A stretch of DNA of 64,000 nt from a virus (Duplodnaviria > Caudoviricetes), in the IMG/VR virus record IMGVR_UViG_3300020576_004053, positions 64,001 through 128,000 of that record. One strand, written 5' to 3'. Position numbers and translations under genes: made by a program. Positions within the stretch are counted from its first letter, which is position 1. Every line of letters starts with the position of its first letter. Below the pieces are notes generated by a model. That model was given only the letters and a program-made list of their open reading frames with translations, was not told the origin of the DNA and did no database searches. This document shows, in pieces, positions 38,597-61,639 of this stretch.

Positions 38597-38670
38597 AGAT
38601 CACGACGGGAATTGAACCCGCAACCGGTCGGGATTAGAGGCCCGCTGCTCTACCGTTGAGCTACATGATC
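38597..38670 (-). tRNA. Atypical tRNA with 8-nt anticodon loop CCUCUAAU (amber-suppressor-like, CUA)
   Basis: GATCATG/CGTGATC acceptor, normal D and T arms, CGGG-CCTCTAAT-CCCG anticodon arm. Confidence 0.75.
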
Positions 38671-43906: not shown

Positions 43907-44389
43907 TCACGCAGTCGTCAGTTTACGCGTACGGGCGAATGCATACGGATGACCGGATGCCGATGCCCAACTTGCCTTCGCCTGACCCCGCGTGACGTTC
44001 GAATACTGCAACGTCGGACCAATACCACCAGCCCCACGCACTTCGTAATCTGCGCAGACGTTGTCGTGATCGATGATCATTTTAATCATCGTATCCACCA
44101 GATTATCATCCAGTGTCGCCACGTCATCAGTCACATCATCGTCGTCTGTATCGACAGCCTGAATCGGAGCGAGTAGTGAATATGACCGGTAGGTGCCATT
44201 ATCGTTCGTCGTGATATCCGCGTCCTCTGTCACCACTTCCTGCATGAAATCGCGGACCTGACTCTGCTTGGCCCAGAATCCTTTCGACCGCAGTACATTC
44301 TTGATGTCCAGATTGGTCGTGGTTCCGTTGAGCGTCATCAGTGCACGAGCAATCTCACGCACTTCCCGTTTCGTAGCGATCTGTTGCAT
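43907..44389 (-). CDS. Hypothetical protein coupled to PARP (possible winged-helix N-terminus)
   Basis: TGA/ATG overlap with the PARP stop. Confidence 0.6.
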   Translation of the reverse strand: MQQIATKREVREIARALMTLNGTTTNLDIKNVLRSKGFWAKQSQVRDFMQEVVTEDADITTNDNGTYRSYSLLAPIQAVDTDDDDVTDDVATLDDNLVDTMIKMIIDHDNVCADYEVRGAGGIGPTLQYSNVTRGQAKASWASASGHPYAFARTRKLTTA

Positions 44390-45621
44390 CAGGTTCCTAC
44401 CTCGACAAGATATTTGATGGTGGACTGCTTATCTGAATATACGATGTATTCGTTGTTAATCAAGTCCGCACCACCCTTGGCGAAGACCGAATCGTAGTTG
44501 CCTTTCTTCCGCAAAACCTGTTCCGAGTAGGAATAACACTCTGAACTATGATGCAGGATAGAAAACTGCTTCCCGACATGCACATCCATCATGGCAAGAA
44601 ACGCCGTTGACGATCCACCACCGGTCCATCGCGCCCCACGTAGAGACGTATACCCTGCCGACTTCCGATACTTATCCGCGAAGTAGATCCCGTGTCCAAA
44701 CATCGATCCAGACAACACCGCATTGGACGGACGGATCTTGAGTCCAGATTCCAGAATAGAAATCCAGTTTTCGTTTCGTGACCCGTGCCAGAACAGTTCC
44801 GTCTTTGGCACTGCTGCCGTCGCCACATGGCCTTCATACTTATTACGCGTCATCGGATGTGTCACCACATAGACCGATCTCAACTCTCGCGCATCACCGG
44901 CCATATGCTTGCGCACGATATCGATATCTTGCGGAGACGCCAACGTGACGAGAAGACCAAGCGCATCCAAGATCGTTTTGATCGGTGCGTCATCATCTTC
45001 GTCTACATCAGCACCAGCCAGTTTTACCTGACCGGCCATAACGTCCAACGTCTTCTGTTCCCCATCGATAATCGTACGGAATTCTTGCAGCACCGCATCG
45101 CTGACCACGGAATTCTTCAACAAATGATCCTGTACCTTGGCCATCCGACGTGGAATCACCATATACAGTTCGACCAACAACTTATTGATCGGATCTTTGT
45201 CCGTGCCGAGTGCAGCCAACGCGGTAAGCTGATCGACAAACCCCTGCGCCTCGTTGACCTGTGCAGCGGTAACGGCATCAGAGGAAATCGTATAGTTTTC
45301 CGTTACTGACCGTCGCGCATAGGTCAACAGCGTATTGAACAGTTTGTCGACCGCTGGCTCTGGGATAGGCTGATATCCGGACTTTTTGGTCGTCGCCTTC
45401 ACCAGATGAGTGACATCTTTATACCCCTTCTTAACTTTTTCCCGATAAATGCTGTCCCACTTTGACATCGGATATGATTTCGTAGCCAAAGGACCACCCA
45501 CTCGTCCCCATTCTGCTAGAAACTCCCCGTTACCGGAAGGCGTCATTGAATACACCTTATTATTGTTTTCCGTCGTCACCATAATGAGACGGACCGGCGA
45601 AGTTACGGTAGAAGTAGACAT
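44389..45621 (-). CDS. WGR-PARP regulatory-PARP catalytic domain ADP-ribosyltransferase
   Basis: NNNKVY...EWGRVG (WGR); LYMVIPR (regulatory); WHGS, MFGHGIYFAD, NEYIVY (H-Y-E triad). Confidence 0.9.
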   Translation of the reverse strand: MSTSTVTSPVRLIMVTTENNNKVYSMTPSGNGEFLAEWGRVGGPLATKSYPMSKWDSIYREKVKKGYKDVTHLVKATTKKSGYQPIPEPAVDKLFNTLLTYARRSVTENYTISSDAVTAAQVNEAQGFVDQLTALAALGTDKDPINKLLVELYMVIPRRMAKVQDHLLKNSVVSDAVLQEFRTIIDGEQKTLDVMAGQVKLAGADVDEDDDAPIKTILDALGLLVTLASPQDIDIVRKHMAGDARELRSVYVVTHPMTRNKYEGHVATAAVPKTELFWHGSRNENWISILESGLKIRPSNAVLSGSMFGHGIYFADKYRKSAGYTSLRGARWTGGGSSTAFLAMMDVHVGKQFSILHHSSECYSYSEQVLRKKGNYDSVFAKGGADLINNEYIVYSDKQSTIKYLVEVGT

Positions 45622-45711: not shown

Positions 45712-45784
45712 AGCACGTGGCGAGATTCGAACTCGCAGTCTCCACCTTGGCAAGGTGGCACATTAACCGTTATGTTACACGTGC
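45712..45784 (-). tRNA. tRNA-Gly(GCC)
   Basis: CCACC-TTGCCAA-GGTGG. Confidence 0.9.
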
Positions 45785-45787
45785 GAA

Positions 45788-45922
45788 AACTACGAGCAAA
45801 TTTAAATGCGCACCGAATGTAACCACCATCCTTCTAGATGATTACGTTCACAGAATTGTTACATTCTGTGATTGGGGTCGAACCAATTATATCCGTTAAC
45901 GATACACGTTCGTCTCGTAGCT
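45788..45922 (-). ncRNA. YrlA-type Y RNA (Ro stem + T arm + loop-closed acceptor stem + D-like arm)
   Basis: 5' AGCUACGAG-A-CGAA pairs with 3' UUUG-CUCGUAGUU; ATTGG-TTCGACC-CCAAT T arm; CACAGAAT-gtaaca-ATTCTGTG; lies 450 nt from the Ro60 gene. Confidence 0.75.
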
Positions 45923-45932
45923 AATATAAATA

Positions 45933-46248
45933 TAGGGGATCATGATAAAAAGGTGTCATGCGGATTTTTGTATGCAGTATATTGTGACGTACTGCATCGC
46001 AACGTCTCGCGACGATTTGTATGGTAGTAAGCTTATAATACCGCGAATATTATTTCTTACGAATCCATACCCTGCCCTCTGCAATAATCCGTACTCACGG
46101 TGTTGGTATACACATGCAAATGGGTGGAGTCTAACCACCGACCATCCTGTTTATACGGCAACGTCTTTCGACTTGGTGTTGCATTGCCACCCCTGTTCAT
46201 CGCTAATTAGACTTAGATAACGCATAACGGCGTATCTATGATCCCCTA
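45933..46248 (-). ncRNA. Candidate 316-nt structured RNA
   Basis: Terminal TAGGGGATCAT/ATGATCCCCTA; internal GTC-GAAA-GAC, GTC-GCGA-GAC and TGCAGTA..TACTGCA hairpins; no credible ORF. Confidence 0.5.
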
Positions 46249-46263
46249 AATTGTCAAAAAGCA

Positions 46264-46373
46264 AAAACTGTGTAGGGTGGACGCGGCACAAGATATTGCT
46301 ACCCGTGCGTATTACTGCGAATAATACGCCAACGTACCACAGCTACGCCCCCACATCCACCCTACCCAGTTTT
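46264..46373 (-). ncRNA. Candidate structured RNA/3' element right after the Ro60 stop
   Basis: AAAACTG.GTAGGGTGGA / TCCACCCTAC.CAGTTTT closing stem with two internal hairpins. Confidence 0.45.
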
Positions 46374-48066
46374 AGAAATCTCCACGGATGAAATCGGACA
46401 TAATGGATGGTGCAGCCGAATCGAACCCGACCACATCCATCATTCCAAAGTCGTTAGGATCTGCGATAGTAAAACCGTTAGAAACTAAACCAACAACTAC
46501 CGACTTTGCTGGAATGCCCATTTCCTTCCGATACTTGTTCAACGCCTGTACTGGCTGCATCCGACCCGCATACGTCTCGTTGTCAGTATACACCACAAAC
46601 GCGTCAAGCTCAACCTTGTTCTTCAATGCCCACAGGAACGGCAGTGAGCAATCCGTACCACCGAAATCCAACCCTTCGGTCAAGTTCACCACATCGTCCA
46701 ACCGCTGACGGTGTGAGAACGGCAATTCGGTAATACCATCACCTGACCGTGCTGACGTGAACCCAGACCGCTTACCGCCACGGTTAAACGAATATCCACC
46801 ACTCGTGAAACCTGCGATCACATAATCCTTTTCCGTGCGCATCGTCATCATTGCCATCGCCGCCGACGCCATGCGCGGAGACAACCCGATCACGCCACCC
46901 ACCTCACCACCCGTCATTGAACCGGACACGTCTAGGAACAGGCCGATACGCTTTCCCGTAGGAATCACGTTCTGGAATGCCACATAGAACAGTTCGTCCA
47001 ATGCATCGATGATGGACGGGGTTGGGGTCCACACGTTGTTACCACGCTGACCACGACCGGCACGATACGTCAAGAGCGCCGTCAACACCTGAATTGGGTG
47101 AATACGATCCTTCTTCACCTTCTCCACATCGCCCAACTTCGCGATGACATCCTTCGCACCTGACGACATCGGCCCGATCAAACCAACCCGAGTCATCGTC
47201 GCCAAGTTACGAACCAGTGCCGTCGTGCCCATGTGTGGCAGCAACGATTCCCAAACTGCCTTCGTGTTCAGCAACTCCGTAGGAATCACTTCACGTGGCA
47301 ACTTGTGGGCTTCGATCAACTTCACCGCAGCCGTCACATCCTTTTCCGTCAACTTCTTGATTTCATCCACTGCCGCAATGAAATCTGCCACGTCGGTATC
47401 GATGACCAATTCCTTGGCACCCTTACCCGTCACGTCTGCAAACAGCGCATCGTGCGTATCCGTTGCGGGCTTGACGTGCGCCAACCGCAATACGTCCTTG
47501 TGCGTCCAGCCATCACGGTTGGCATACTTCACCAACTGATGAGCCAACTGCATCGGCGTCTTCTCGTTGTACCAAGCCGCAAAGGCACGACGGATACCAC
47601 GTCCCCACGTCGCCATGCCGTTGATGTAGTCGGCAAGGTGGAGCACATGCGTTCCGATACGAGCGACCTTCGGAAGCGCAATATATGCCGCTCGCTTGGC
47701 CTCGTCCGTACCATGCGCCATCACCATCGCCAACGCAAACAATGCAGGATCGTTCTTCGGCGCACGACCGGCTTCCGACAGTTCAACGATGCGGTTTACC
47801 ACACGCACGCCATCTGCCGCGATTGCACGCATCACTGCCGCTGCGTTTTCCTTGGTCAACTTCTGTTCAGAAGCGTAATACGATCCACCTTCTGAACCAA
47901 GAATCAGGAATCGATCCAGTCGTGAAAAATCCGACACCGAGAAGACCACGCCACCAGCCGAGTTCTTCACCATATCCTTCTCACGACCCTTGATTGCCTG
48001 AGTCTGCGGGGTTACTGCATTGGCACGAACTCGCGTCTGTGCCGTCTTCGAATACGTCTTTGCCAT
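46372..48066 (-). CDS. rsr: Ro60/Rsr RNA-binding protein (TROVE + vWA)
   Basis: NSAGG.VF, RLDRFLILGSEGGSYY, KYANRDGWTHKDVLRLAH, MIDAS DVSGSM, GGTDCSLP, YTDNET, VVGFD; GGAGG RBS before ATG 48066. Confidence 0.95.
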   Translation of the reverse strand: MAKTYSKTAQTRVRANAVTPQTQAIKGREKDMVKNSAGGVVFSVSDFSRLDRFLILGSEGGSYYASEQKLTKENAAAVMRAIAADGVRVVNRIVELSEAGRAPKNDPALFALAMVMAHGTDEAKRAAYIALPKVARIGTHVLHLADYINGMATWGRGIRRAFAAWYNEKTPMQLAHQLVKYANRDGWTHKDVLRLAHVKPATDTHDALFADVTGKGAKELVIDTDVADFIAAVDEIKKLTEKDVTAAVKLIEAHKLPREVIPTELLNTKAVWESLLPHMGTTALVRNLATMTRVGLIGPMSSGAKDVIAKLGDVEKVKKDRIHPIQVLTALLTYRAGRGQRGNNVWTPTPSIIDALDELFYVAFQNVIPTGKRIGLFLDVSGSMTGGEVGGVIGLSPRMASAAMAMMTMRTEKDYVIAGFTSGGYSFNRGGKRSGFTSARSGDGITELPFSHRQRLDDVVNLTEGLDFGGTDCSLPFLWALKNKVELDAFVVYTDNETYAGRMQPVQALNKYRKEMGIPAKSVVVGLVSNGFTIADPNDFGMMDVVGFDSAAPSIMSDFIRGDF

Positions 48067-48120
48067 TGTTACGTACCTCCCAATCAAGGGGGTAAAGGGT
48101 TTGTACTACGTTGATACTGC

Positions 48121-48149
48121 AACCTACACACTATTATGTAATCTGTCAA
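48121..48149 (-). promoter_or_regulatory. sigma70-type promoter of rsr
   Basis: TTGACA-17nt-TAGGTT. Confidence 0.65.
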
Positions 48150-48150
48150 G

Positions 48151-48269
48151 TGGAGATGATGGGAATCGAACCCAAAGCAGTCTTTTGTTCAGAAAGATAA
48201 CGCTCCAAAAGTCGTACCGTTGCCGGTCAAGTTATATTAGAACGGTTTTACCGCGTAACCTACATCCCC
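48151..48269 (-). ncRNA. tRNA-Y hybrid RNA 1 (Ala-like acceptor)
   Basis: GGGGATG/CATCTCC-A (G3.U70), D and T arms; anticodon region replaced by CGTTCTAA..CTTGACCG-GCAA-CGGTACGA..TTGGAGCG-TTATC. Confidence 0.75.
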
Positions 48270-48286
48270 TTGATTTTCCTACGATA

Positions 48287-48751
48287 CTACTCCGCCGATC
48301 CTGCACGATAATTGTTCGGATTGCACCATGTCAAGGTCTGCGTGTGACAATTAGGACAAAGCCATCGCAGATTTTCTTTTCGGTTATCGCGATAATTACC
48401 GTTTATATGATCAAGCTGTAGCTTCAATTCCATCCCGCGATGTTCACCTTTGTTTTCACACCATGCACAACAGTACGGAATCGCACGTTTTGCAAAAATG
48501 CGCAAAGTAGCCTGTGCTACACGCTTCGAATCTGTAAACACATCCTCATCGGATAGCCTCTGCCGTCTTTGCCCACGTGTCAAAAAATGGCTCGTATCTA
48601 TCCCCAATATAGCGATGCGCTCTTTTACTCGCCGGTAATTACTTGTACCATCAGAAAGACCGAGTGCATACAACACGTCTCTGACGGTTTTCTGTCCGTC
48701 GACTGCACTAATCAGTTGTTCGTCTGACCACTTTCTCTTTGAACCTCGCAT
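48287..48751 (-). CDS. HNH homing endonuclease
   Basis: CAWC...LQLDHINGN..DNRKENLRWLCPNCH.QT. Confidence 0.9.
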   Translation of the reverse strand: MRGSKRKWSDEQLISAVDGQKTVRDVLYALGLSDGTSNYRRVKERIAILGIDTSHFLTRGQRRQRLSDEDVFTDSKRVAQATLRIFAKRAIPYCCAWCENKGEHRGMELKLQLDHINGNYRDNRKENLRWLCPNCHTQTLTWCNPNNYRAGSAE

Positions 48752-48832
48752 TTATTCTCTCCTTAAAATAGTGAGAATAAATAGTACGATTCAAATTCAA
48801 ACGACAAGTTAGTTCGAACCTATGCCCGTTTT

Positions 48833-49084
48833 TTACCACGACTTTAAATTCGAAAACTCTTCCACCGTCATATCACCCACTAACACCTCAAACGCGGCAT
48901 AATCAAACTGCTCTCGTAGAAATGCATACAACGATCTACCCGAGTCTTCCGTGAACTCTTCCTTTGTCGCTTCCATCACCAGCTTAAACACTTTTTCTAT
49001 GTTTGTGGTATGGAACCATCCTTGGCGAACTATCCGCTTAAAGATATAACGCAACACCCAGATTTGAAATTTTGATATCATCAT
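48833..49084 (-). CDS. Hypothetical protein
   Basis: 83 aa ORF coupled to the upstream gene. Confidence 0.5.
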   Translation of the reverse strand: MMISKFQIWVLRYIFKRIVRQGWFHTTNIEKVFKLVMEATKEEFTEDSGRSLYAFLREQFDYAAFEVLVGDMTVEEFSNLKSW

Positions 49085-49563
49085 AGTTGGATCGATGCGA
49101 CCGGTGTTGCAGTATCAGGATAAAAGATAGCTTGTTTATAGCCTCGCACAAGCCCCCGTTTTACTCTATACTTTCGAATGAGGAAATCCGCCCGACGAAG
49201 TACATTCAACTCTTGGTCGTCGCTCCACCATGCATATAATTGGGAAAGTGAATCAAACCCAAATACCGTCGTTTGCCATGCCATCGGATGGTTATATACC
49301 CATTCTCTGAGCAATGGATCTGCCGCTATTCCCGGTCGTTTCCACTTAAATCCAGCATGTACCCTTTTGTTATGTTTAGACGGCAACTGATTGAACGGTT
49401 CATGGGTTATTGTAATATCCATGAATTTCCGAGCATCATCTGAATCTATCGTCGATGCAAACGTACAATTCGTTGCCCATGCATACGGACCCACTTTCAC
49501 ACACGTATGCCGTAACTGAATCATACGATGTTCTACCCGATATACACTTCCAGATTCTAACAT
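49081..49563 (-). CDS. Hypothetical protein
   Basis: VYRVEH...GPY...FGFDSLSQL..W; start trimmed to after the RNA gene. Confidence 0.55.
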   Translation of the reverse strand: MLESGSVYRVEHRMIQLRHTCVKVGPYAWATNCTFASTIDSDDARKFMDITITHEPFNQLPSKHNKRVHAGFKWKRPGIAADPLLREWVYNHPMAWQTTVFGFDSLSQLYAWWSDDQELNVLRRADFLIRKYRVKRGLVRGYKQAIFYPDTATPVASIQL

Positions 49564-49565
49564 AG

Positions 49566-49693
49566 TGCCAGCGGAGGGAATTGAACCCCCGACCACCCCT
49601 GTTTGATAGGATAACGAATCTCAGGGCGTACCGTTGCCGGTCAAGGTTGTAGAAATTCGGTTTTTAGGTGCTCTACCACTGAGCTACACTGGC
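49566..49693 (-). ncRNA. tRNA-Y hybrid RNA 2
   Basis: Textbook GCCAGTG-TA-GCTCAGTGGTAGAGC...GGGGGTTCAATTCCCTC-CGCTGGC-A; anticodon arm holds CGAATTTC..CTTGACCG-GCAA-CGGTACG..GAGATTCG-TTATC. Confidence 0.8.
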
Positions 49694-49801
49694 GTTGAAC
49701 TACATATATAGCGACCATCTTTCCCAAACGATCACCCTACTCCCCATCCACATATATTGTCATGTTCGGATGGACGTTCGCATGGGACAAACTTTCCTTC
49801 A

Positions 49802-49960
49802 TCAGCACGCTTCACAGTCGTAGGCTTGCTTCACCTGTTTTGTTTCGACCGGACAATCATCATCGCGATATTTGCACCCATGCCATACGCAACAATGGGT
49901 CACATGGACGCCGATCTCATACGGATAATCGTCCTCTACATCTTTCTGTTCGTCTGACAT
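49802..49960 (-). CDS. Small Cys/His-rich protein (52 aa)
   Basis: H.THCC.WHGCKY....CPV...CEAC; below ORF-track cutoff. Confidence 0.45.
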   Translation of the reverse strand: MSDEQKDVEDDYPYEIGVHVTHCCVWHGCKYRDDDCPVETKQVKQAYDCEAC

Positions 49961-49963
49961 AAG

Positions 49964-50091
49964 TTGGTCGGGTAGGAGTCGAACCTACAACGGGCCTGTT
50001 TGAGTTAACGATAATCTACGTCTCAGGTTACCCCGAGCAAAGGATCGATCACCATTGGAGACAGGTGTGTTTACCATTTCACCACCGACCA
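49964..50091 (-). ncRNA. tRNA-Y hybrid RNA 3 (tRNA-Trp(CCA) with 54-nt insert at 37/38)
   Basis: TGGTCGG/CCGACCA acceptor; CCTGT-CTCCAA-[insert with TTTGCTC-GGG-GTAA-CCT-GAGACG]-A-ACAGG. Confidence 0.8.
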
Positions 50092-50095
50092 TCAG

Positions 50096-50161
50096 TGCGG
50101 TCAAAGAGATAACCAAGGGGGTTTTATCTTAAAAGGATAACCCTCAGTTGTTCGTACCGCA
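50096..50161 (-). ncRNA. Minimal (66-nt) Y RNA, canonical topology
   Basis: 5' UGCGGU-A-CGAA pairs with 3' UUUGACCGCA; GUUAUC occurs twice inside. Confidence 0.7.
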
Positions 50162-50233
50162 GAACAACAATCTACAACAACTTTGGTTACAGCGCAAGTA
50201 CCGGAGACGAGAAAGTGCAGACTTAGATATGTG

Positions 50234-50938
50234 TTAGTTTGACACAACGTCTTTTACACTCGGCCACTTACCCGTATCATAATAGAGCCGACGCTGTTTC
50301 GCACGAGTGGAATTCTTGTTTCGACTCTTATATGTATCCGTTTGAGAATGACAGTTCGGACACAACAATCTCAAATTATCAGGATGGTTGTTGTCAGAGT
50401 TGCCATCTACGTGATCTAACTGTAAAGTCAAAGGTTTGTGATTGTGCACAGATCCCTGAGAACACCATGCACATGCGTTTCCACGACAATCTATCAACGC
50501 CGCCTTCAACACAGACAGAGAATTTGGATTAAGAGTTCCTGCTAAAAATCGTTCAATTCTAACACGTCTATTATTTGCACCACGACACTTTTTAGAACAA
50601 TACCGCATATAACGACTACAGCTATTCCCACACTCTAAACATCTAACGGGATCACGACTAGCATCACCGGTACGATTATTAGCTTTACCACATTTCAATG
50701 AGCAGCACTTTTTATGTTTATTATTACGAAATATATGTTCTTTAACATATTGATCAAACGAAACGCCACATCGTATGCAATTTAAAACTACGTGAATTAA
50801 CGGCTTAGTTTTCGTTTGTCTATGTTTTTCAATAGTTGCGTTTCTTTTTGGATTTTTGACACAATTAGTAACATGTGCACCAAACGCACGTTTAACATCA
50901 AATTCAAACTCACCATCACAATGTTTACATATTTGCAT
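50234..50938 (-). CDS. HNH homing endonuclease
   Basis: Cys-rich N-terminus; LQLDHVDGNSDNN..DNLRLLCPNCHSQT. Confidence 0.9.
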   Translation of the reverse strand: MQICKHCDGEFEFDVKRAFGAHVTNCVKNPKRNATIEKHRQTKTKPLIHVVLNCIRCGVSFDQYVKEHIFRNNKHKKCCSLKCGKANNRTGDASRDPVRCLECGNSCSRYMRYCSKKCRGANNRRVRIERFLAGTLNPNSLSVLKAALIDCRGNACAWCSQGSVHNHKPLTLQLDHVDGNSDNNHPDNLRLLCPNCHSQTDTYKSRNKNSTRAKQRRLYYDTGKWPSVKDVVSN

Positions 50939-51012
50939 AAAAATACCCCCGTTACAAATAAGTAGGGAGGTATGGAGCGAAAAACGAGATTTGATGTAAA
51001 AGGTACTAATTA

Positions 51013-51086
51013 AGTGGATGACGGGAGTCGAACCCGCAAGAATTCAGTTTGGAAAACTGACGCTTTACCGTATAAGCTTCATCCAC
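51013..51086 (-). tRNA. tRNA-Gly(TCC)
   Basis: TCAGT-TTTCCAA-ACTGA. Confidence 0.9.
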
Positions 51087-51270
51087 ATTGAGCCTAGCTG
51101 TACATTGTTCTTTTATATCCCGCTTTTCCATTAGCGGCCCAATCAAACGGCTTGTCTAACCTCTAGGCTCATCCCCATCAAAAATTCCATAGGGTTCTGG
51201 CGACTCTACCGTTCACTTAATATATAGCGACGATCTGCTATTTTATCAACCTTGACTTCCGATAAAGTGT

Positions 51271-51425
51271 TAGATACGAGTTGTGAGCTTTCCACCCACA
51301 CGCTGGTTTGCCTACACTGCGTAGTAGTCGCCGCACTGTTGCCAGTCAGGTAGCCACAGACCATCGATATAGTGTCTTAACCATCAAGGGATTCGGGCAC
51401 TATATCTGTTGTTGTCTCGTATCTA
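51271..51425 (-). ncRNA. Candidate multi-stem RNA with internal Ro-type hairpin
   Basis: TAGATACGAG/CTCGTATCTA closing stem; GATATAGTG/CACTATATC; CTGACTG-GCAA-CAGTGCG. Confidence 0.55.
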
Positions 51426-51501
51426 TGCGTAAGGTGGGAGTCGAACCCACAAACCACTGATTTTGAGTCAGCGAGGTATTTCCAGTTCCCGTCACTCACG
51501 C
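51426..51501 (-). tRNA. tRNA-Leu(CAA), short variable arm
   Basis: GCTGA-CTCAAAA-TCAGT; 5-nt variable region. Confidence 0.8.
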
Positions 51502-51959
51502 GTACTTTTGGGAAAGCCTAACCGTAACTTATCCCGTTCCATCTGTAACTTATCAGCCTCACTATACAGTGTCAAGTGAGCGATCTCATCAGCGTTCTGC
51601 TTGTCCACATACTCGTATATCACCTCTTTCCGACTCTGACTATAGACATTCCATCCAGTAGTAAAATACCACGTTGGATGGCTGATCAGTTTAAATGGAA
51701 TAAACGTGATAACATCTACTATCCACGCAGCACCGGTACGTATTAATATAGCTATGATTACAAACCACCAGAACAGTATTACCGTTAACACCGATCCTTC
51801 AACGGTATATGTCATGTTCGGTACATAATCTCCATGATCAGACCATCCTAACACACGACGTTCACCATCTATTTCTACAACCGGCATACGCTTCCACCAT
51901 ATCACAAAAAACGTCATCGCACATACTAAATACGCTAAAACCCCGGCTGCGAGTTTCAC
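51492..51959 (-). CDS. Membrane protein
   Basis: Two hydrophobic segments; GTG start. Confidence 0.55.
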   Translation of the reverse strand: MKLAAGVLAYLVCAMTFFVIWWKRMPVVEIDGERRVLGWSDHGDYVPNMTYTVEGSVLTVILFWWFVIIAILIRTGAAWIVDVITFIPFKLISHPTWYFTTGWNVYSQSRKEVIYEYVDKQNADEIAHLTLYSEADKLQMERDKLRLGFPKSTRE

Positions 51960-52411
51960 CAGTCCGATCCTCCCCCGCCACCGCTGAATCCACTATCTGA
52001 TCCACCAAAATCCGTAGAGGATGACGACGAATCTGATGGGGATGACGGTGCACTGAAATCAATAAACGGAATAACGGTGTTGATATCCGTTAAAGGTGAC
52101 CGTCGTGTGATATCATCGTCATCATTCTTCTTAGATGACGGTAGATCGCTCACAATATCATCATCCTGTGGTTTTGTTGGACGCGATACCGTTGGAGTAG
52201 ATGTTTTCGTCGGTGCCGCAGGACGTACGGTACGAACCGGGGCCGTGAACGAACGATTCATCTCGGCCATCCGCTTCTCATAATCTTCCCGACGACGTAA
52301 TTCTGCCCGTCGTTCCCGTTCAGCATCTCGGATCTCTATGATATGTTGAACTGCGATCATAATACATCCGAAGATCAACACAACTAATGCGGCGGCTAGA
52401 AGGTAGTTCAC
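51956..52411 (-). CDS. Membrane-anchored protein with Gly/Ser tail
   Basis: N-terminal TM; C-terminal DFGGSDSGFSGGGGGSDW. Confidence 0.65.
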   Translation of the reverse strand: MNYLLAAALVVLIFGCIMIAVQHIIEIRDAERERRAELRRREDYEKRMAEMNRSFTAPVRTVRPAAPTKTSTPTVSRPTKPQDDDIVSDLPSSKKNDDDDITRRSPLTDINTVIPFIDFSAPSSPSDSSSSSTDFGGSDSGFSGGGGGSDW

Positions 52412-57709: not shown

Positions 57710-58525
57710 TTATAGAATAGGGAATCGATGTTTGATATCGCGGACCAACGAGACTGCCTCTGGTAAAGCTAACACATCTGGCTGCCAGCACAAGCCCCGT
57801 TCGATTAAATCTATGGAATCCATAATCCGCGCACCGGGAATAACCGACCCATCCGGATTCCGTTCCCGTCCCATCAACCAGATCGTATCAGCGGCGGAAA
57901 CAGCGGCTGAGACATCATGTGTCACAACGACGACCGTGGTTTCTTCATGGGTAGTGGTGACACGTTGAATAAGTGCGATCACCTTATTCAACGAATTCAC
58001 GTCCAGCCCAGAGAACGGTTCATCCATGACGATATAATGCTCACTACACAACAACTGCTGTGCAATAGCGACTCGCTGTTTCTGCCCACCGGATAGTTGA
58101 ATCGGATACTTGTCAGCATGTTGGGTCAGATCGAATTCTGCCAACATCGCCTTACTCCGTTCCACCACATCAGATTGGTTGGATTGGGTTGCCGCTTTAA
58201 TCAGGTTGCCCAAGACCGTACGATGCGGCATAAGGGGATAATGCTGCGCCACGACCCCTACCATGCCCGGAGCCGTTAATTTGGCGTCAGCACCCACGTA
58301 GACCGCTCCAGTGTCCGGTTTCTTTAGACCGGCCAACACACGGAATAGCGTCGTCTTCCCAATACCCGATGGTCCCAACAATCCAACCACCTGTCCTTGT
58401 AGCATATTCGGACGGACGACGTTGCGAATCTCGGCAGACATATTACGCAAGATCGGGACGCCATCATATGCAACCGAGACGTTATCAATCTTGAGTAGAA
58501 TTTCTTTCCGCTCGTATTCAAACAT
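57710..58525 (-). CDS. ABC transporter ATPase (NitT/TauB-like)
   Basis: GPSGIGKT, LSGGQKQRVAIA, MDEPFSGLD, VTHD. Confidence 0.95.
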   Translation of the reverse strand: MFEYERKEILLKIDNVSVAYDGVPILRNMSAEIRNVVRPNMLQGQVVGLLGPSGIGKTTLFRVLAGLKKPDTGAVYVGADAKLTAPGMVGVVAQHYPLMPHRTVLGNLIKAATQSNQSDVVERSKAMLAEFDLTQHADKYPIQLSGGQKQRVAIAQQLLCSEHYIVMDEPFSGLDVNSLNKVIALIQRVTTTHEETTVVVVTHDVSAAVSAADTIWLMGRERNPDGSVIPGARIMDSIDLIERGLCWQPDVLALPEAVSLVRDIKHRFPIL

Positions 58526-58668
58526 CAGACGAAGGTGTTGTGGGATGTAGGAGTGCCCGAATATCATCGAACGTCAACCATGTACCATCGATACAGACCG
58601 ATGATGTATTCTTTGGAAAACTATTCGATGACTTTTCAGAATGGGTTCTCTGCGTGTCCGTTTCTTTG

Positions 58669-59812: not shown

Positions 59813-61639
59813 TTATTGCCCGATGATGATTTCGACACGACGGTTCTTGGCACGTCCATCTGCGGTAGCATTCGTCGCAATCGGAGAATCTGATCCATGA
59901 CCCGTCACCCGAATACGACCGGACGGAAAGTCTGTGGGATTCTTGTTCTGCAACCATGCCTTGATTGCCAACGCTCGCTCTTCCGACAACTGCTTGTTCG
60001 TCAACGGATCACCCACATTATCCGTGTGCCCATGCACTTCAATGGTCAGGTTGTTGATCGACAAGGTGCGATACAACTCTTCCATCTGAAACTCACCCTG
60101 TTGTGTCAACGTGGACTTACCGGTCGCGAATGTAATCTGCACATTTCGCGTACCGACCACTCGTGACATCCGCGTACCACCGGAATATTCGATCTTTTCT
60201 GCCACACCAGCATCCTTGGTCTTCGCTGCCAACGTCCGAAGATATGACAGATCCACCACTTCCTCTGCCCCATCAACTGCCGGTACCAAATCCGGATACA
60301 TCTCGTGCACCAAGTTGGCAAAGACGGTGTAAGTCGCCGTGAATCGTGACGCTTCAGGTTTCGTGTTGGGGGCCAATCCGAATAGCACCAGATTATCCGC
60401 CAAGTTATTCGCCTTCGATCCACCCAACTCGACCTTCATCCCCGTCTTATCCTCTTCCGTCACCCCGATGTAATACCGCTTCCAATACGCAGCATCAGCA
60501 CCTTTCTCGTTATAGATCTGTGCCGAAATTTCTGCGGCCCGATCCAACGCCTGTGGATGATTGAGTACCTGATCCCCACCCTGTGTGAAGGCATCCAACA
60601 TCTTCACCACGACATCCTTGTGCGTCTGGTTCCACTTCCGAATGCCGATGATCACGTTAGGCATCTGGTTGGCGTATTCCTTGGTAGAAATCACCGTCAC
60701 CACACCACCCCGTTCCTTCGCCATGATCACGTCACCGGGAGTCCATGTCACCGCGCCTTCAACACACACATTCTTCGTTTCACCCGTGGGCTTACCGTTA
60801 TTCACGACCTTACGATCTTCACACGCACCGGCCACGAATTTCTGTGCGGCATCGATGTAATCCTTTGTGTTCATGAAGTTGAGCAGATTCGGATCATACG
60901 TCTTTTCATCCGGATTGATGCCCACATCATTATCACCGGCATATCGCACCGCAATATTCCAGTCACCGTCACGAATCACACCAGCCACCAGCGCGCCCTT
61001 GAGCGTTTTCGGATTGGTCGCCCACTTTTCCGGTCCCATCAGTTTGTCTTCACCACGCGAATATCCACATGATCCGATAATCTCGGCGCGATAGTCCTCA
61101 CCATACGCGTCGACCAGTGTGGTATTCAGAGCCGACAGAAACGCACCCGATCCGTCACCCATGATGGCGATGAAATGCGAGCCTTCCGTGGGATCAGTAT
61201 TTCCACCTTTCATCGCCTTGGCCAGTGCCGTCAGTTCCGCCATCAACTGGTTATTGTCGTCCTGACGTTCGATGTACATCTTGATGCCCTGCTTTTCCAT
61301 CAGACTGCCCTGCGTCGTCACAGGACCACCGTTGGAAAGCAGACACCCCATCTGTGCGTTCCATGCCCAGAACTTCACACGCACTTCGGGAGCACCGGAC
61401 AGATTCGCTACCTTGGTCGTCGGCAACCCTGCGAATGCGACGTTGGTTTCACCCGACGTATTGAATCGGGAATCCGTGACCTGATCATCCAGCTTCACCT
61501 TGGGGACCATGAACGCCGGGAGATATTTCTGTCCCAATCCGGTTCCTGCGGCATACTTCAATCCGAATACACCGCCGATGATCACCAACAGTCCGATAAA
61601 ACGAGAGATTGTTTTCTTGCCCTTCGCTGTGAGAGCCAT
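59813..61639 (-). CDS. Periplasmic substrate-binding (NMT1/TauA-like) + OmpA_C fusion
   Basis: N-terminal anchor; SRGED and TWTP motifs; C-terminal GHTD.VG...N..LS..RA...NRRVEI. Confidence 0.85.
   Translation of the reverse strand: MALTAKGKKTISRFIGLLVIIGGVFGLKYAAGTGLGQKYLPAFMVPKVKLDDQVTDSRFNTSGETNVAFAGLPTTKVANLSGAPEVRVKFWAWNAQMGCLLSNGGPVTTQGSLMEKQGIKMYIERQDDNNQLMAELTALAKAMKGGNTDPTEGSHFIAIMGDGSGAFLSALNTTLVDAYGEDYRAEIIGSCGYSRGEDKLMGPEKWATNPKTLKGALVAGVIRDGDWNIAVRYAGDNDVGINPDEKTYDPNLLNFMNTKDYIDAAQKFVAGACEDRKVVNNGKPTGETKNVCVEGAVTWTPGDVIMAKERGGVVTVISTKEYANQMPNVIIGIRKWNQTHKDVVVKMLDAFTQGGDQVLNHPQALDRAAEISAQIYNEKGADAAYWKRYYIGVTEEDKTGMKVELGGSKANNLADNLVLFGLAPNTKPEASRFTATYTVFANLVHEMYPDLVPAVDGAEEVVDLSYLRTLAAKTKDAGVAEKIEYSGGTRMSRVVGTRNVQITFATGKSTLTQQGEFQMEELYRTLSINNLTIEVHGHTDNVGDPLTNKQLSEERALAIKAWLQNKNPTDFPSGRIRVTGHGSDSPIATNATADGRAKNRRVEIIIGQ

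What the first reader, a model, noticed from the sequence alone, without database searches (positions are those of the whole stretch)
49964..50091. tRNA-Trp(CCA) with a Y-RNA hairpin at the canonical 37/38 intron position
Seen: deleting 54 nt (TGGTGATC...AACTCA) restores a 74-nt tRNA with CCTGT-CTCCAAA-ACAGG. The insert folds as a hairpin (AATGGTGATC/GATTATCGTT) topped by the Ro motif. Established: 37/38 is the archaeal/eukaryotic protein-spliced intron site, and bacterial Rsr is often encoded with the RNA ligase RtcB. Inference: either an intron whose removal gives tRNA-Trp plus a free or circular Y RNA, or a snapshot of how the hybrids arose (copies 1 and 2 have lost the anticodon). No RtcB or splicing endonuclease is recognisable in this window.
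Basis: partly seen in the sequence, partly recalled or inferred. Interest (0 to 1): 0.78.

Follow-up and report, generated by a model that had tools for sequence, protein, structure and literature searches.

The report
tRNA-shaped Y RNA, not an intron
This phage gene encodes a tRNA-shaped RNA whose anticodon end carries the docking hairpin for the phage's Ro60 protein; it is most likely a permanent Ro60 partner RNA of a widespread, apparently undescribed layout, and nothing found here supports a tryptophan tRNA with a removable intron.

Summary
The sequence is as described. Window 49964-50091 (minus strand) is a 128-nt tRNA-like gene, and removing 54 nt leaves a 74-nt cloverleaf with CCUGU-CUCCAAA-ACAGG.

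The intron reading finds no support:
- There is no bulge-helix-bulge motif at the proposed cuts.
- The 143-kb phage record has no RtcB, splicing endonuclease, Rnl2-type ligase or Tpt1.
- An intact tRNA-Trp(CCA) lies elsewhere in the record.
- The body shows no special likeness to tRNA-Trp, and the discriminator is A.
- The cut position is ambiguous.

What it is instead:
- It is one of three tRNA-shaped Y RNAs just upstream of the phage Ro60/Rsr gene.
- A covariance model found about 90 more such RNAs beside 53 of 160 other Rsr genes.
- They carry the Y-RNA Ro60-site motifs (CUUGCC ... GGGCCGAAGG ... GGUUAUC) as a closed hairpin on an open-ended tRNA. This is the reverse wiring of published YrlA.
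- In copies 1 and 2 the hairpin sits before a separate anticodon-like arm. In copy 3 the anticodon stem encloses it, as in 13 others.
- Its hairpin matches an end-paired Y RNA downstream of rsr, with compensatory changes.

This scan has already reported the same class on other DNA. I found no paper describing it. No RNA data were available, and no orthologue of copy 3 could be fetched.

The parts
49964..50091 (-). Copy 3 (c3), the finding itself: a 128-nt tRNA-shaped Y RNA in which the anticodon stem encloses the Ro60-type hairpin ('type B')
   Evidence: RF00005 46.5 bits with a 56-nt insert. Model R1 60.2 bits, but c3 was in the seed. The cloverleaf-constrained fold is -39.0 kcal/mol against an MFE of -39.4.
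50085..50091 (-). c3 acceptor stem, 5' strand UGGUCGG. It pairs with CCGACCA at 49965-49971. The discriminator A is at 49964, and no CCA is encoded.
   Evidence: cmscan alignment and sequence
50067..50082 (-). c3 D arm (GUGA-AAUGGUAA-ACAC; G18 and G19 present; the 13-22 pair is A.A)
50061..50065 (-). c3 anticodon-stem 5' strand CCUGU, pairing with ACAGG at 49995-49999
   Evidence: The equivalent stem covaries across 14 type B RNAs.
50055..50060 (-).
   Evidence: Sequence. In other type B RNAs the linker is 3-9 nt, begins with CU in 6 of 14, and does not read as an anticodon elsewhere.
50009..50054 (-). Ro60-type module: helix H (UGGUGAUC at 50047-50054 with GAUUAUCG at 50009-50016), internal loop GAUCCUUUG / ACGUA, and a capping hairpin CUCGGG-GUAA-CCUGAG (50022-50037)
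   Evidence: Folds. Helix H is 8/8 paired in c1, c2, c3 and yB with different sequences. Family covariation.
50000..50008 (-). 3' linker UUAACUCAA, containing the family's conserved UUAYC motif and ending in AA (the R37 A38 frame)
   Evidence: compare UUAUCUCAA in L065
49972..49988 (-). c3 T arm GUAGG-UUCGACU-CCUAC
50096..50161 (-). yA: an end-paired (canonical topology) Y RNA of the c1/c2 subtype (GGUACG ... GGGUUAUC ... CUUUGACCGC). It ends 4 nt before the 5' end of c3.
Evidence: Fold -21.5 kcal/mol, z -3.5, 0 of 200 shuffles as good. Motifs.
49566..49693 (-). Copy 2 (c2): a tRNA-shaped Y RNA of type A, with the module between the D arm and a local anticodon-like arm
   Evidence: RF00005 47.9 bits, R1 89.9 bits (seed member), MFE fold, classification
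48148..48269 (-). Copy 1 (c1): a tRNA-shaped Y RNA of type A, 60 nt upstream of rsr. It shares the 19-mer CUUGACCGGCAACGGUACG with c2.
46372..48087 (-). rsr: Ro60 orthologue, 571 aa, with TROVE and Ro60 vWA domains
   Evidence: Pfam PF05731 2.7e-38 and PF25045 6.9e-56. Homologues.
45788..45922 (-). yB: an end-paired, YrlA-like Y RNA of the c3 subtype (GAGACG ... UAUCGUUAAC ... UUUGCUCG) with an internal T-arm-like hairpin. It ends 3 nt before tRNA-Gly(GCC) at 45712-45784.
   Evidence: Fold -44 kcal/mol, z -4.5, 0 of 200 shuffles. Shared motifs and two compensatory pair changes against c3.

Best explanation
c3 is a Y RNA, meaning a partner RNA of the phage's Ro60/Rsr protein, built on a tRNA frame. 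It has a normal open acceptor stem, D arm, T arm and a 5-bp anticodon stem. Where the anticodon loop should be, it carries a closed hairpin holding the Ro60-binding helix.

Inferred mechanism (none of these steps was observed):
1. The RNA is transcribed with the minus-strand tRNA array.
2. Host RNase P cuts at its 5' end. This also trims the end-paired Y RNA yA, which lies 4 nt upstream.
3. Its 3' end is trimmed and given CCA by host enzymes, as for the phage's other tRNAs, none of which encode CCA.
4. The full 128-nt RNA persists. Rsr binds the hairpin while the tRNA-like elbow and acceptor end are offered to tRNA-binding factors, as proposed for YrlA.

The hairpin is not removed. The CUCCAA 'Trp' reading is a linker that happens to look like the 5' half of an anticodon loop, or at most a relic of one.
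For: 1. Context. Rsr (TROVE plus Ro60 vWA) lies on the same strand, 1.9 kb downstream, with two more tRNA-shaped hairpin carriers between them.

2. Family.
- ARAGORN with introns found 119 long-insert 'tRNAs' in 166 Rsr loci, 118 of them on the Rsr strand.
- A covariance model found 94 distinct RNAs of 100 nt or more, in 53 of 160 loci. Of these, 80 lie upstream of rsr at a median of 332 nt.
- All 32 pairs covary.

3. Motifs. The consensus CUUGCCCG-loop-CGGGCCGAAGG ... GGUUAUC matches the consensus printed for Rfam RF01656 (GGUCCGGAG ... GGGUUAUC ... AACUUGACCG). RF01656 itself scores an end-paired RNA next to a hybrid in L023 at 38.5 bits against a threshold of 38. By my own knowledge RF01656 is a nematode Y-RNA-like (sbRNA) family, and the same words occur in human Y1.

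4. Same layout elsewhere. Fourteen RNAs including c3 have a perfect 5-bp stem at tRNA positions 27-31/39-43 enclosing the module. The stems all differ in sequence. The 3' linker is UUAYC...RA in 11 of 14.

5. The c3 module matches the end-paired Y RNA yB. GAGACG, UAUCGUUAAC and UUUGCUCG are identical, and helix H is 8/8 paired in both with two double compensatory changes.

6. Both end-paired Y RNAs stop 3-4 nt before a tRNA-type 5' end: yA before c3 and yB before tRNA-Gly. This suggests the c3 frame is used as a real tRNA processing signal.

7. Evidence against excision:
- No BHB motif at the proposed cuts.
- No RtcB, EndA, Rnl2 or Tpt1 in the record.
- A separate tRNA-Trp exists.
Against: - There is no RNA-level evidence of any kind. 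The only RNA-labelled run laid is probably DNA and consists of contigs.
- Binding to Rsr is inferred from motifs and linkage only.
- The Ro-site words in this phage deviate from the consensus (GAG-A-CGUAG instead of GGG-C-CGAAGG).
- Rfam YrlA (RF02553) does not score c3 even at E up to 10.
- c3's D arm (GUGA/ACAC) departs from the family's near-invariant GCUC/GAGC.
- c3 was in the seed of my model, so its model score is by construction.
- The CUCCAA|A match to real tRNA-Trp loops is striking.
Confidence: 0.8

Rival explanations
1. Evolutionary relic. c3 arose when a yB-type Ro60 stem was grafted into the anticodon loop of a real tRNA, possibly tRNA-Trp. CU...CCA...AA is what remains of that loop. 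The RNA now works as a Y RNA, so this concerns origin and is compatible with the best explanation.
For: The c3 module is the same subtype as the end-paired yB in the same locus. Type B RNAs keep C32-U33 (6 of 14) and R37-A38 (11 of 14) around the module, and type A RNAs keep canonical anticodon-loop positions (C32 27/35, U33 27/35, R37 27/35). This suggests descent from real tRNAs. CCUGU-CUCCAAA-ACAGG resembles bacterial tRNA-Trp anticodon arms (my own knowledge of E. coli and B. subtilis tRNA-Trp).
Against: With the anticodon loop left out, the c3 body ranks tRNA-Trp no higher than 10th of 431 tRNAs, and its nearest neighbour is the phage's tRNA-Thr(CGU). It is unrelated to the phage's own tRNA-Trp. 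The discriminator is A, whereas bacterial tRNA-Trp has G73 (my own knowledge). Among 14 type B linkers one anticodon-like reading is not unexpected by chance.
Confidence: 0.2
2. True intron. The 54-nt hairpin is excised by an endonuclease and the halves are joined, for example by host RtcB. This would give a working tRNA-Trp(CCA) plus a free or circular Y-type hairpin.
For: Precise deletion gives a well-formed 74-nt cloverleaf with a canonical CUCCAAA loop. In Salmonella, Rsr is encoded in the same operon as RtcB (PMC7790460). [quoted passage not shown]
Against: - There is no bulge-helix-bulge at the junctions, and A36/A37 pair within the hairpin helix.
- The phage record has no RtcB, EndA, Rnl2-type ligase or Tpt1.
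- The insert is too short for a group I intron, and Rfam reported no intron family at E up to 10.
- tRNA-Trp is already supplied.
- The same hairpin sits at a different place (between the D and anticodon arms) in c1, c2 and most relatives, where excision would not restore anything.
- An end-paired Y RNA of the same subtype is separately encoded.
Confidence: 0.03
3. Decaying or non-functional copy. c3 is a degenerate paralogue of c1/c2, or a tRNA disrupted by a stray Y-module insertion, kept only as an RNase P site for the upstream yA or not at all.
For: c3 has the lowest model score of the three (60 against 68 and 90 bits), a D arm unlike the family consensus, an A.A at 13-22, and a diverged Ro site.
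Against: All helices are intact: acceptor 7/7, anticodon stem 5/5, H 8/8, cap 6/6, T 5/5. Helix H differs from yB by compensatory double changes, which implies selection for pairing. G18, G19 and the UUCGA T loop are kept.
Confidence: 0.05

Closest known systems
YrlA (Y RNA-like A; Rfam RF02553; Chen et al. 2014, PMC4201824; structure preprint 10.1101/312249)
   Same: Both are encoded next to rsr on the same strand. Both join a Ro60-binding helix to a tRNA-like D arm/T arm elbow. The conserved words are shared: GNCGAA-type 3' side, CUUG 5' side and UUAYC. The family's D stem GCUC/GAGC and the T loop are the ones conserved in YrlA.
   Different: The wiring is reversed. Published YrlA has its 5' and 3' ends in the Ro60 stem, a closed 'acceptor' hairpin, and the T arm 5' of the D arm. 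Here the acceptor stem is open, the D arm precedes the T arm as in a tRNA, and the Ro60 stem is sealed by a loop. RF02553 gives no hit on c1-c3 at E up to 10, while it does respond, below threshold, in phages ET08 and Cashline. c3 additionally keeps a 5-bp anticodon stem.
[quoted passage not shown] 2014, PMC4201824)
   Same: A Y RNA whose tRNA-like domain acquires free acceptor-type ends and CCA, showing that tRNA-processing enzymes act on Y RNAs.
   Different: There the open acceptor arises by cutting a closed loop and yields a two-piece RNA whose Ro60 stem also has free ends. Here the gene itself is laid out as a one-piece tRNA with a sealed Ro60 stem.
End-paired Y RNAs (metazoan Y RNAs, nematode sbRNAs RF01656, D. 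radiodurans Yrn1)
   Same: The Ro60-site words match: GGUCCGAAGG ... GUUAUC on one strand and CUUGAC on the other (consensus shown). The window holds two such end-paired RNAs, yA and yB.
   Different: In c3 the two strands come in the opposite order and are joined by a GUAA-capped hairpin. The 'effector' end is a whole tRNA frame.
Archaeal/eukaryal protein-spliced tRNA introns (bulge-helix-bulge, mostly at 37/38) and permuted tRNA genes
   Same: An insert interrupts the anticodon loop of a cloverleaf, and one reading puts it at 37/38.
   Different: There is no BHB, no endonuclease or ligase in the record, and the setting is bacterial/phage, where such endonucleases are unreported. The insert is a conserved protein-binding module that occurs at another position in most relatives.
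Bacterial group I introns in tRNA anticodon loops
   Same: They interrupt a bacterial-type tRNA anticodon loop.
   Different: The insert is 54 nt, against roughly 200 nt or more for group I introns (my own knowledge). Rfam reported no intron family at E up to 10.

Membership tests
YrlA (RF02553) | Encoded adjacent to rsr/Ro60 on the same strand | tested here: met
   rsr is at 46372-48087 (-). c1, c2 and c3 lie 60 nt, 1.5 kb and 1.9 kb upstream on the same strand.
YrlA (RF02553) | Ro60-binding helix with the GNCGAAN0-1G motif and its CUUG partner strand | tested here: inconclusive
   c3 has GAGACGUAG / CUUUGCUCG, a diverged form. The wider tRNA-shaped family has the canonical GGGCCGAAGG / CUUGCCCG. 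Binding was not tested.
YrlA (RF02553) | tRNA-like D and T arms able to form the elbow | tested here: met
   RF00005 46.5 bits over the full model. G18, G19 and the UUCGA T loop are present.
YrlA (RF02553) | Topology: RNA ends in the Ro60 stem, closed acceptor-like hairpin, T arm 5' of D arm | tested here: not met
   c3 has open acceptor ends, the D arm 5' of the T arm, and a Ro60 stem closed by a GUAA hairpin. The published topology is described.
YrlA (RF02553) | Scores with the Rfam covariance model (gathering 69 bits) | tested here: not met
   No RF02553 hit at E up to 10 on 47000-52000 or on 49950-50105. Positive controls: 42.2 bits in Cashline and 37.4 bits in ET08.
   c3 scores 60.2 bits but was a seed member. 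About 70 non-seed RNAs match, and 13 others share c3's enclosing anticodon stem.
Protein-spliced tRNA intron (BHB type) | Both cut sites lie in 3-nt bulges separated by a 4-bp helix | tested here: not met
   The scan of c3 found no such motif at 36/37-37/38. The required partner GGAG or UGGA is absent from UCGUUAACUCAA.
Protein-spliced tRNA intron (BHB type) | Splicing endonuclease and ligase available | tested here: not met
   PF01974, PF01139, PF09414 and PF01885 are all absent from the 143-kb record, which is 79% complete. The host is unknown, and bacteria are not known to have the endonuclease.
Protein-spliced tRNA intron (BHB type) | Spliced product detected, and exon junction conserved in homologues | not testable with these tools
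tRNA-Trp | CCA anticodon presented in a 7-nt loop | tested here: not met
   In the gene as encoded, CCA lies directly 5' of helix H, and A36 pairs into the helix in the best cloverleaf fold.
tRNA-Trp | Body and discriminator of tRNA-Trp type | tested here: not met
   The best tRNA-Trp ranks 10th of 431 tRNAs and the nearest tRNA is Thr(CGU). c3 is unlike the phage's own tRNA-Trp. The discriminator is A, whereas bacterial tRNA-Trp has G73 (my own knowledge).
Group I intron | Catalytic core (P3-P8), typically 200 nt or more | tested here: not met
   The insert is 54 nt, and Rfam reported no intron family at E up to 10.

The most novel reading that the evidence does not exclude
The Ro60 hairpin of c3 is a removable cassette. 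An unrecognised bacterial or phage nuclease, plus a host ligase such as RtcB, would excise it without a bulge-helix-bulge, giving a decoding tRNA-Trp and a free or circular Y-type RNA. That would be the first protein-spliced tRNA intron in the bacterial world, and it would link Ro60 to tRNA splicing or repair.

A tamer and likelier reading is also not excluded, at roughly 0.4. The two matched module subtypes, each present in both end-paired and tRNA-embedded form, would show that tRNA-mimic Y RNAs arise by grafting a Ro60 stem onto tRNAs, and not from dimeric tRNA transcripts as proposed.
Probability: 0.03. Interest if true: 0.92.

Novelty: new variant of a known kind. Interest (0 to 1): 0.58.

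Why it matters
Ro60 and its Y RNAs are conserved from bacteria to humans. What the tRNA-like end of bacterial Y RNAs does is still unknown.

The published picture is that YrlA is a circularly permuted tRNA mimic with a closed acceptor end. Here, and beside about a third of the 160 other Rsr genes sampled, the same Ro60-binding module rides on RNAs wired as real tRNAs. They have free acceptor ends (often with encoded CCA in relatives) and usually an anticodon-like loop. Such RNAs could be processed, CCA-tailed and perhaps recognised by synthetases or anticodon nucleases.

This changes which partners are plausible, and it bears on how Y RNAs evolved from tRNAs. For this particular gene the practical message is negative: it should not be annotated as an intron-containing tRNA-Trp.

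Tried and rejected
1. Close relatives of c3.
- A megablast of 46000-52000 against 50,697 phage records found nothing.
- Exact-pattern scans of IMG/VR for the c1/c2 19-mer hit only unrelated coding DNA.
- The c3 T-arm/acceptor 24-mer gave 0 hits.
- A 19-mer across CUCCAA scanned in 596 Gb of genomes gave 7 hits, all 19-20-nt chance matches.

2. RNA evidence. Run X5 is labelled RNA-Seq but is flagged as probably DNA, and all laid runs are contigs. No contig joins across the c3 insert. The middle of c3 (about 49984-50047) is not covered by the pieces listed for the roughly 90%-identical relative in X5. The variant table was cut before reaching c3. None of this counts for or against splicing.

3. 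Joints. The joints between c2/c3 flanks that carry ordinary anticodon arms (X4, X5, table 5c) are short-sided matches to generic tRNA arms at 80% likeness. I set them aside as other organisms' tRNAs.

4. Promoter and terminator scan of 46200-51300: no more sites than in shuffles.

5. A possible sixth module at 46216-46236 (GAUACG ... GCGUUAUC), with a T-arm-like hairpin nearby, did not fold better than shuffles.

6. A phage CCA-adding enzyme (PF01743) is absent.

7. Scoring an in-silico permuted c3 with RF02553 was not possible. There is no reference for a rearranged sequence, and Infernal is not in the script box.

Full report
**Setting.** The window is bases 64001-128000 of a 143-kb IMG/VR phage record, estimated 79% complete. 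The phage is a myovirus only distantly related to cultured phages. A baseplate protein is 44% identical to Microcystis phage Mel-JY01 and 38% to Flavobacterium phages, and there is no nucleotide-level relative among 50,697 phage records. Genes in this part run on the minus strand. The record carries a tmRNA and 30 ordinary tRNA genes.

**The observation.**
- Rfam's tRNA model matches 49964-50091 (minus) end to end at 46.5 bits, with 56 nt looped out of the anticodon loop.
- The cut can be slid by one base with the same result.
- ARAGORN, allowed introns, reads the gene as Glu(CUC) with an intron at position 35. The '37/38' position is therefore a choice, not a measurement.
- With the cloverleaf frame enforced the RNA folds at -39.0 kcal/mol, against an unconstrained optimum of -39.4. 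In that fold the insert is a 10-bp helix that uses A36 and A37, topped by an internal loop and a 6-bp GUAA-capped hairpin.

**The locus.**
- The 571-aa ORF at 46372-48087 (minus) is a Ro60/Rsr orthologue with TROVE and Ro60 vWA domains.
- Two more tRNA-like genes with long inserts lie between it and c3: c1 at 48148-48269 and c2 at 49566-49693.
- Following a first-reader note on this window (e1-5755137), I checked two further RNAs.
  - yA (50096-50161) folds as an end-paired hairpin with z = -3.5 and ends 4 nt before the first base of c3.
  - yB (45788-45922) folds with z = -4.5 and ends 3 nt before tRNA-Gly(GCC).
  - No shuffle of 200 folded as well for either.
- Both carry Y-RNA words. yA has the c1/c2 subtype (GGUACG ... 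GUUAUC ... UUGACCG). yB has the c3 subtype (GAGACG ... UAUCGUUAAC ... UUUGCUCG).
- Helix H is fully paired (8/8) in c1, c2, c3 and yB with different sequences.
- Between c3 and yB two pairs have changed on both sides, C-G to A-U and G.U to U-A. This is direct evidence that the c3 hairpin is a selected structure, homologous to the stem of a free-standing Y RNA in the same locus.

**A family, not a one-off.**
- I collected 160 other Rsr loci from metagenomes and IMG/VR.
- ARAGORN with introns called 119 long-insert 'tRNAs' in them, 118 on the Rsr strand.
- I aligned 24 of these RNAs, including c1-c3, and built a covariance model. It found 94 distinct RNAs of 100 nt or more.
- They occur in 53 of the 160 loci. 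Eighty lie upstream of rsr at a median distance of 332 nt, and 11 lie downstream.
- All 32 modelled pairs show double changes. 91% of cells pair, against 65% after shuffling and 38-48% when partners are slid.
- The consensus runs: acceptor stem, D arm (GCUCAGUGGUAGAGC), an A-rich linker, helix H, CUUGCCCG-loop-CGGGCCGAAGG, helix H, GGUUAUC, then the rest of a tRNA, often with encoded CCA.
- The same words appear in the printed consensus of Rfam RF01656 (GGUCCGGAG ... GGGUUAUC ... AACUUGACCG). RF01656 scores an end-paired RNA beside a hybrid in L023 above threshold. I know RF01656 as a nematode Y-RNA-like family.
- In the tRNA-shaped RNAs the two strands come in the opposite order and are joined by a loop.
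- Published YrlA has its ends in the Ro60 stem and a closed acceptor-like hairpin, with the T arm before the D arm. These RNAs are the reverse wiring.
- Rfam YrlA (RF02553) does not see c1-c3 even at E up to 10. It does respond in mycobacteriophage ET08 and Gordonia phage Cashline.

**Two sub-layouts.**
- Type A has about 48 members, including c1 and c2. The module sits between the D arm and a separate local hairpin that looks like an anticodon arm. Among the 35 with 7-nt loops, position 32 is C in 27, position 33 is U in 27, and position 37 is a purine in 27.
- Type B has 14 clear members, including c3. A perfect 5-bp stem at tRNA positions 27-31/39-43 encloses the module. The 14 stems all differ in sequence.
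- In type B the 5' linker is 3-9 nt (or holds an extra GNRA hairpin) and starts with CU in 6 of 14. The 3' linker is UUAYC plus a few bases, ending in purine-A in 11 of 14.
- c3's 3' linker UUAACUCAA is nearly that of L065 (UUAUCUCAA).
- Seen against these relatives, c3 reads as C32 U33 [linker-module-linker] A37 A38, with CCA falling in the variable linker. No other type B linker reads as an anticodon.

**Is it tRNA-Trp?**
- The record has an intact tRNA-Trp(CCA) at C1:135799-135875, outside the window, with an unrelated body.
- With the anticodon loop left out, c3's nearest tRNA among 431 from this phage and the Rsr loci is the phage's tRNA-Thr(CGU). The best tRNA-Trp ranks 10th.
- The discriminator is A. 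Bacterial tRNA-Trp has G73 (my own knowledge).

**Is it an intron?**
- A bulge-helix-bulge would need the anticodon side (CUCC or UCCA) to pair with the four bases just before the 3' cut. The sequence there is UUAACUCA, and a scan of the whole RNA found no such motif at the proposed junctions.
- The record has no RtcB, tRNA-intron endonuclease, Rnl2-type ligase or Tpt1. The YrlA structure paper notes that such endonucleases are unreported in bacteria.
- At 54 nt the insert is far too short for a group I intron, and Rfam reported no intron family.
- In most relatives the same module sits where excision would restore nothing. A free Y RNA of the c3 subtype is separately encoded.

**What could not be done.**
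Conservation of CCA is therefore untested.
- Public runs hold the phage and a roughly 90% relative (wastewater, river and sludge metagenomes). They are contigs, the one 'RNA' run is probably DNA, and nothing bears on splicing or RNA ends.

**Verdict.**
- c3 is best explained as a Ro60 partner RNA in tRNA wiring, sub-layout B. It is probably processed like a tRNA and probably also serves as the RNase P signal that trims yA. All of these steps are inferred.
- The intron idea is not excluded by experiment, but nothing found here supports it.
- The class appears undescribed in the papers I could search. Subscription journals are largely missing from that library.
- Earlier reports of this scan found the same class on other phage DNA. 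My own count here, 53 of 160 loci, and the split into types A and B are independent of them.

Noticed in passing
window 50096-50161 (-) and 45788-45922 (-): Two end-paired Y RNAs (yA, yB) each stop 3-4 nt before a tRNA-type 5' end: yA before c3 and yB before tRNA-Gly(GCC) at 45712-45784. RNase P cleavage of the downstream tRNA would therefore set their 3' ends. yB also contains a T-arm-like hairpin (UUGG-UUCGACC-CCAA), as in published YrlA.
   Followed up: partly
window 48287-48751 (-): The HNH endonuclease ORF between c1 and c2 is missing from a roughly 90%-identical relative in public run X5. Its contig skips 552 nt and has 138 other letters there. This fits a mobile homing-endonuclease gene. 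A second HNH ORF lies at 50234-50938 (-).
   Followed up: partly
window 44389-45621 (-): A 410-aa ORF with a PARP catalytic domain (PF00644, 4.7e-23) lies just downstream of rsr, yB and tRNA-Gly. It is an ADP-ribosyltransferase next to an RNA-quality-control locus.
   Followed up: no
window 46115-46260 (-): Between rsr and yB there is a GAUACG...GCGUUAUC word and a T-arm-like GGUGG-UUAGACU-CCACC hairpin. This may be a sixth, degenerate Y/tRNA-like element. The folds were not better than shuffles.
   Followed up: partly
loci L077, L054, L017, L024, L038, L085, L150, L158, L093, L129 and others: In most tRNA-shaped Y RNAs of other Rsr loci, the hairpin after GGUUAUC is a canonical-looking anticodon arm (CU-NNN-RA) with many different 'anticodons': UUU x4, GCU x3, ACG, CUU, CAU and more. 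These RNAs are therefore complete tRNAs with an extra arm at position 26/27. Whether they are charged or decoded is unknown.
   Followed up: partly
L168 (Gordonia phage Cashline) 3704-3886: The tRNA-wired model (3704-3842) and Rfam YrlA (3790-3886) overlap on one shared T arm. In tandem arrays the same DNA can therefore be read in either topology. Some published YrlA calls may deserve a second look.
   Followed up: no
L023 7801-7864: Rfam's nematode family RF01656 (ceN72-3_ceN74-2) scores a metagenomic RNA directly 3' of a tRNA-shaped Y RNA and just upstream of Rsr at 38.5 bits (threshold 38). A eukaryotic Y-like model thus cross-detects an end-paired Y RNA in an uncultured microbe or phage.
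   Followed up: no
window 38597-38670 (-): ARAGORN calls a tRNA with an irregular anticodon loop ('tRNA-???', anticodon 'ct'). An earlier report of this scan treats it as a four-base decoder.
   Followed up: no
window 57710-58567 (-) and 59813-61639 (-): Within or beside the tRNA array there is an ABC-transporter ATPase-like ORF (PF00005, 1e-25) and a 608-aa ORF ending in an OmpA domain (PF00691, 5e-20).
   Followed up: no
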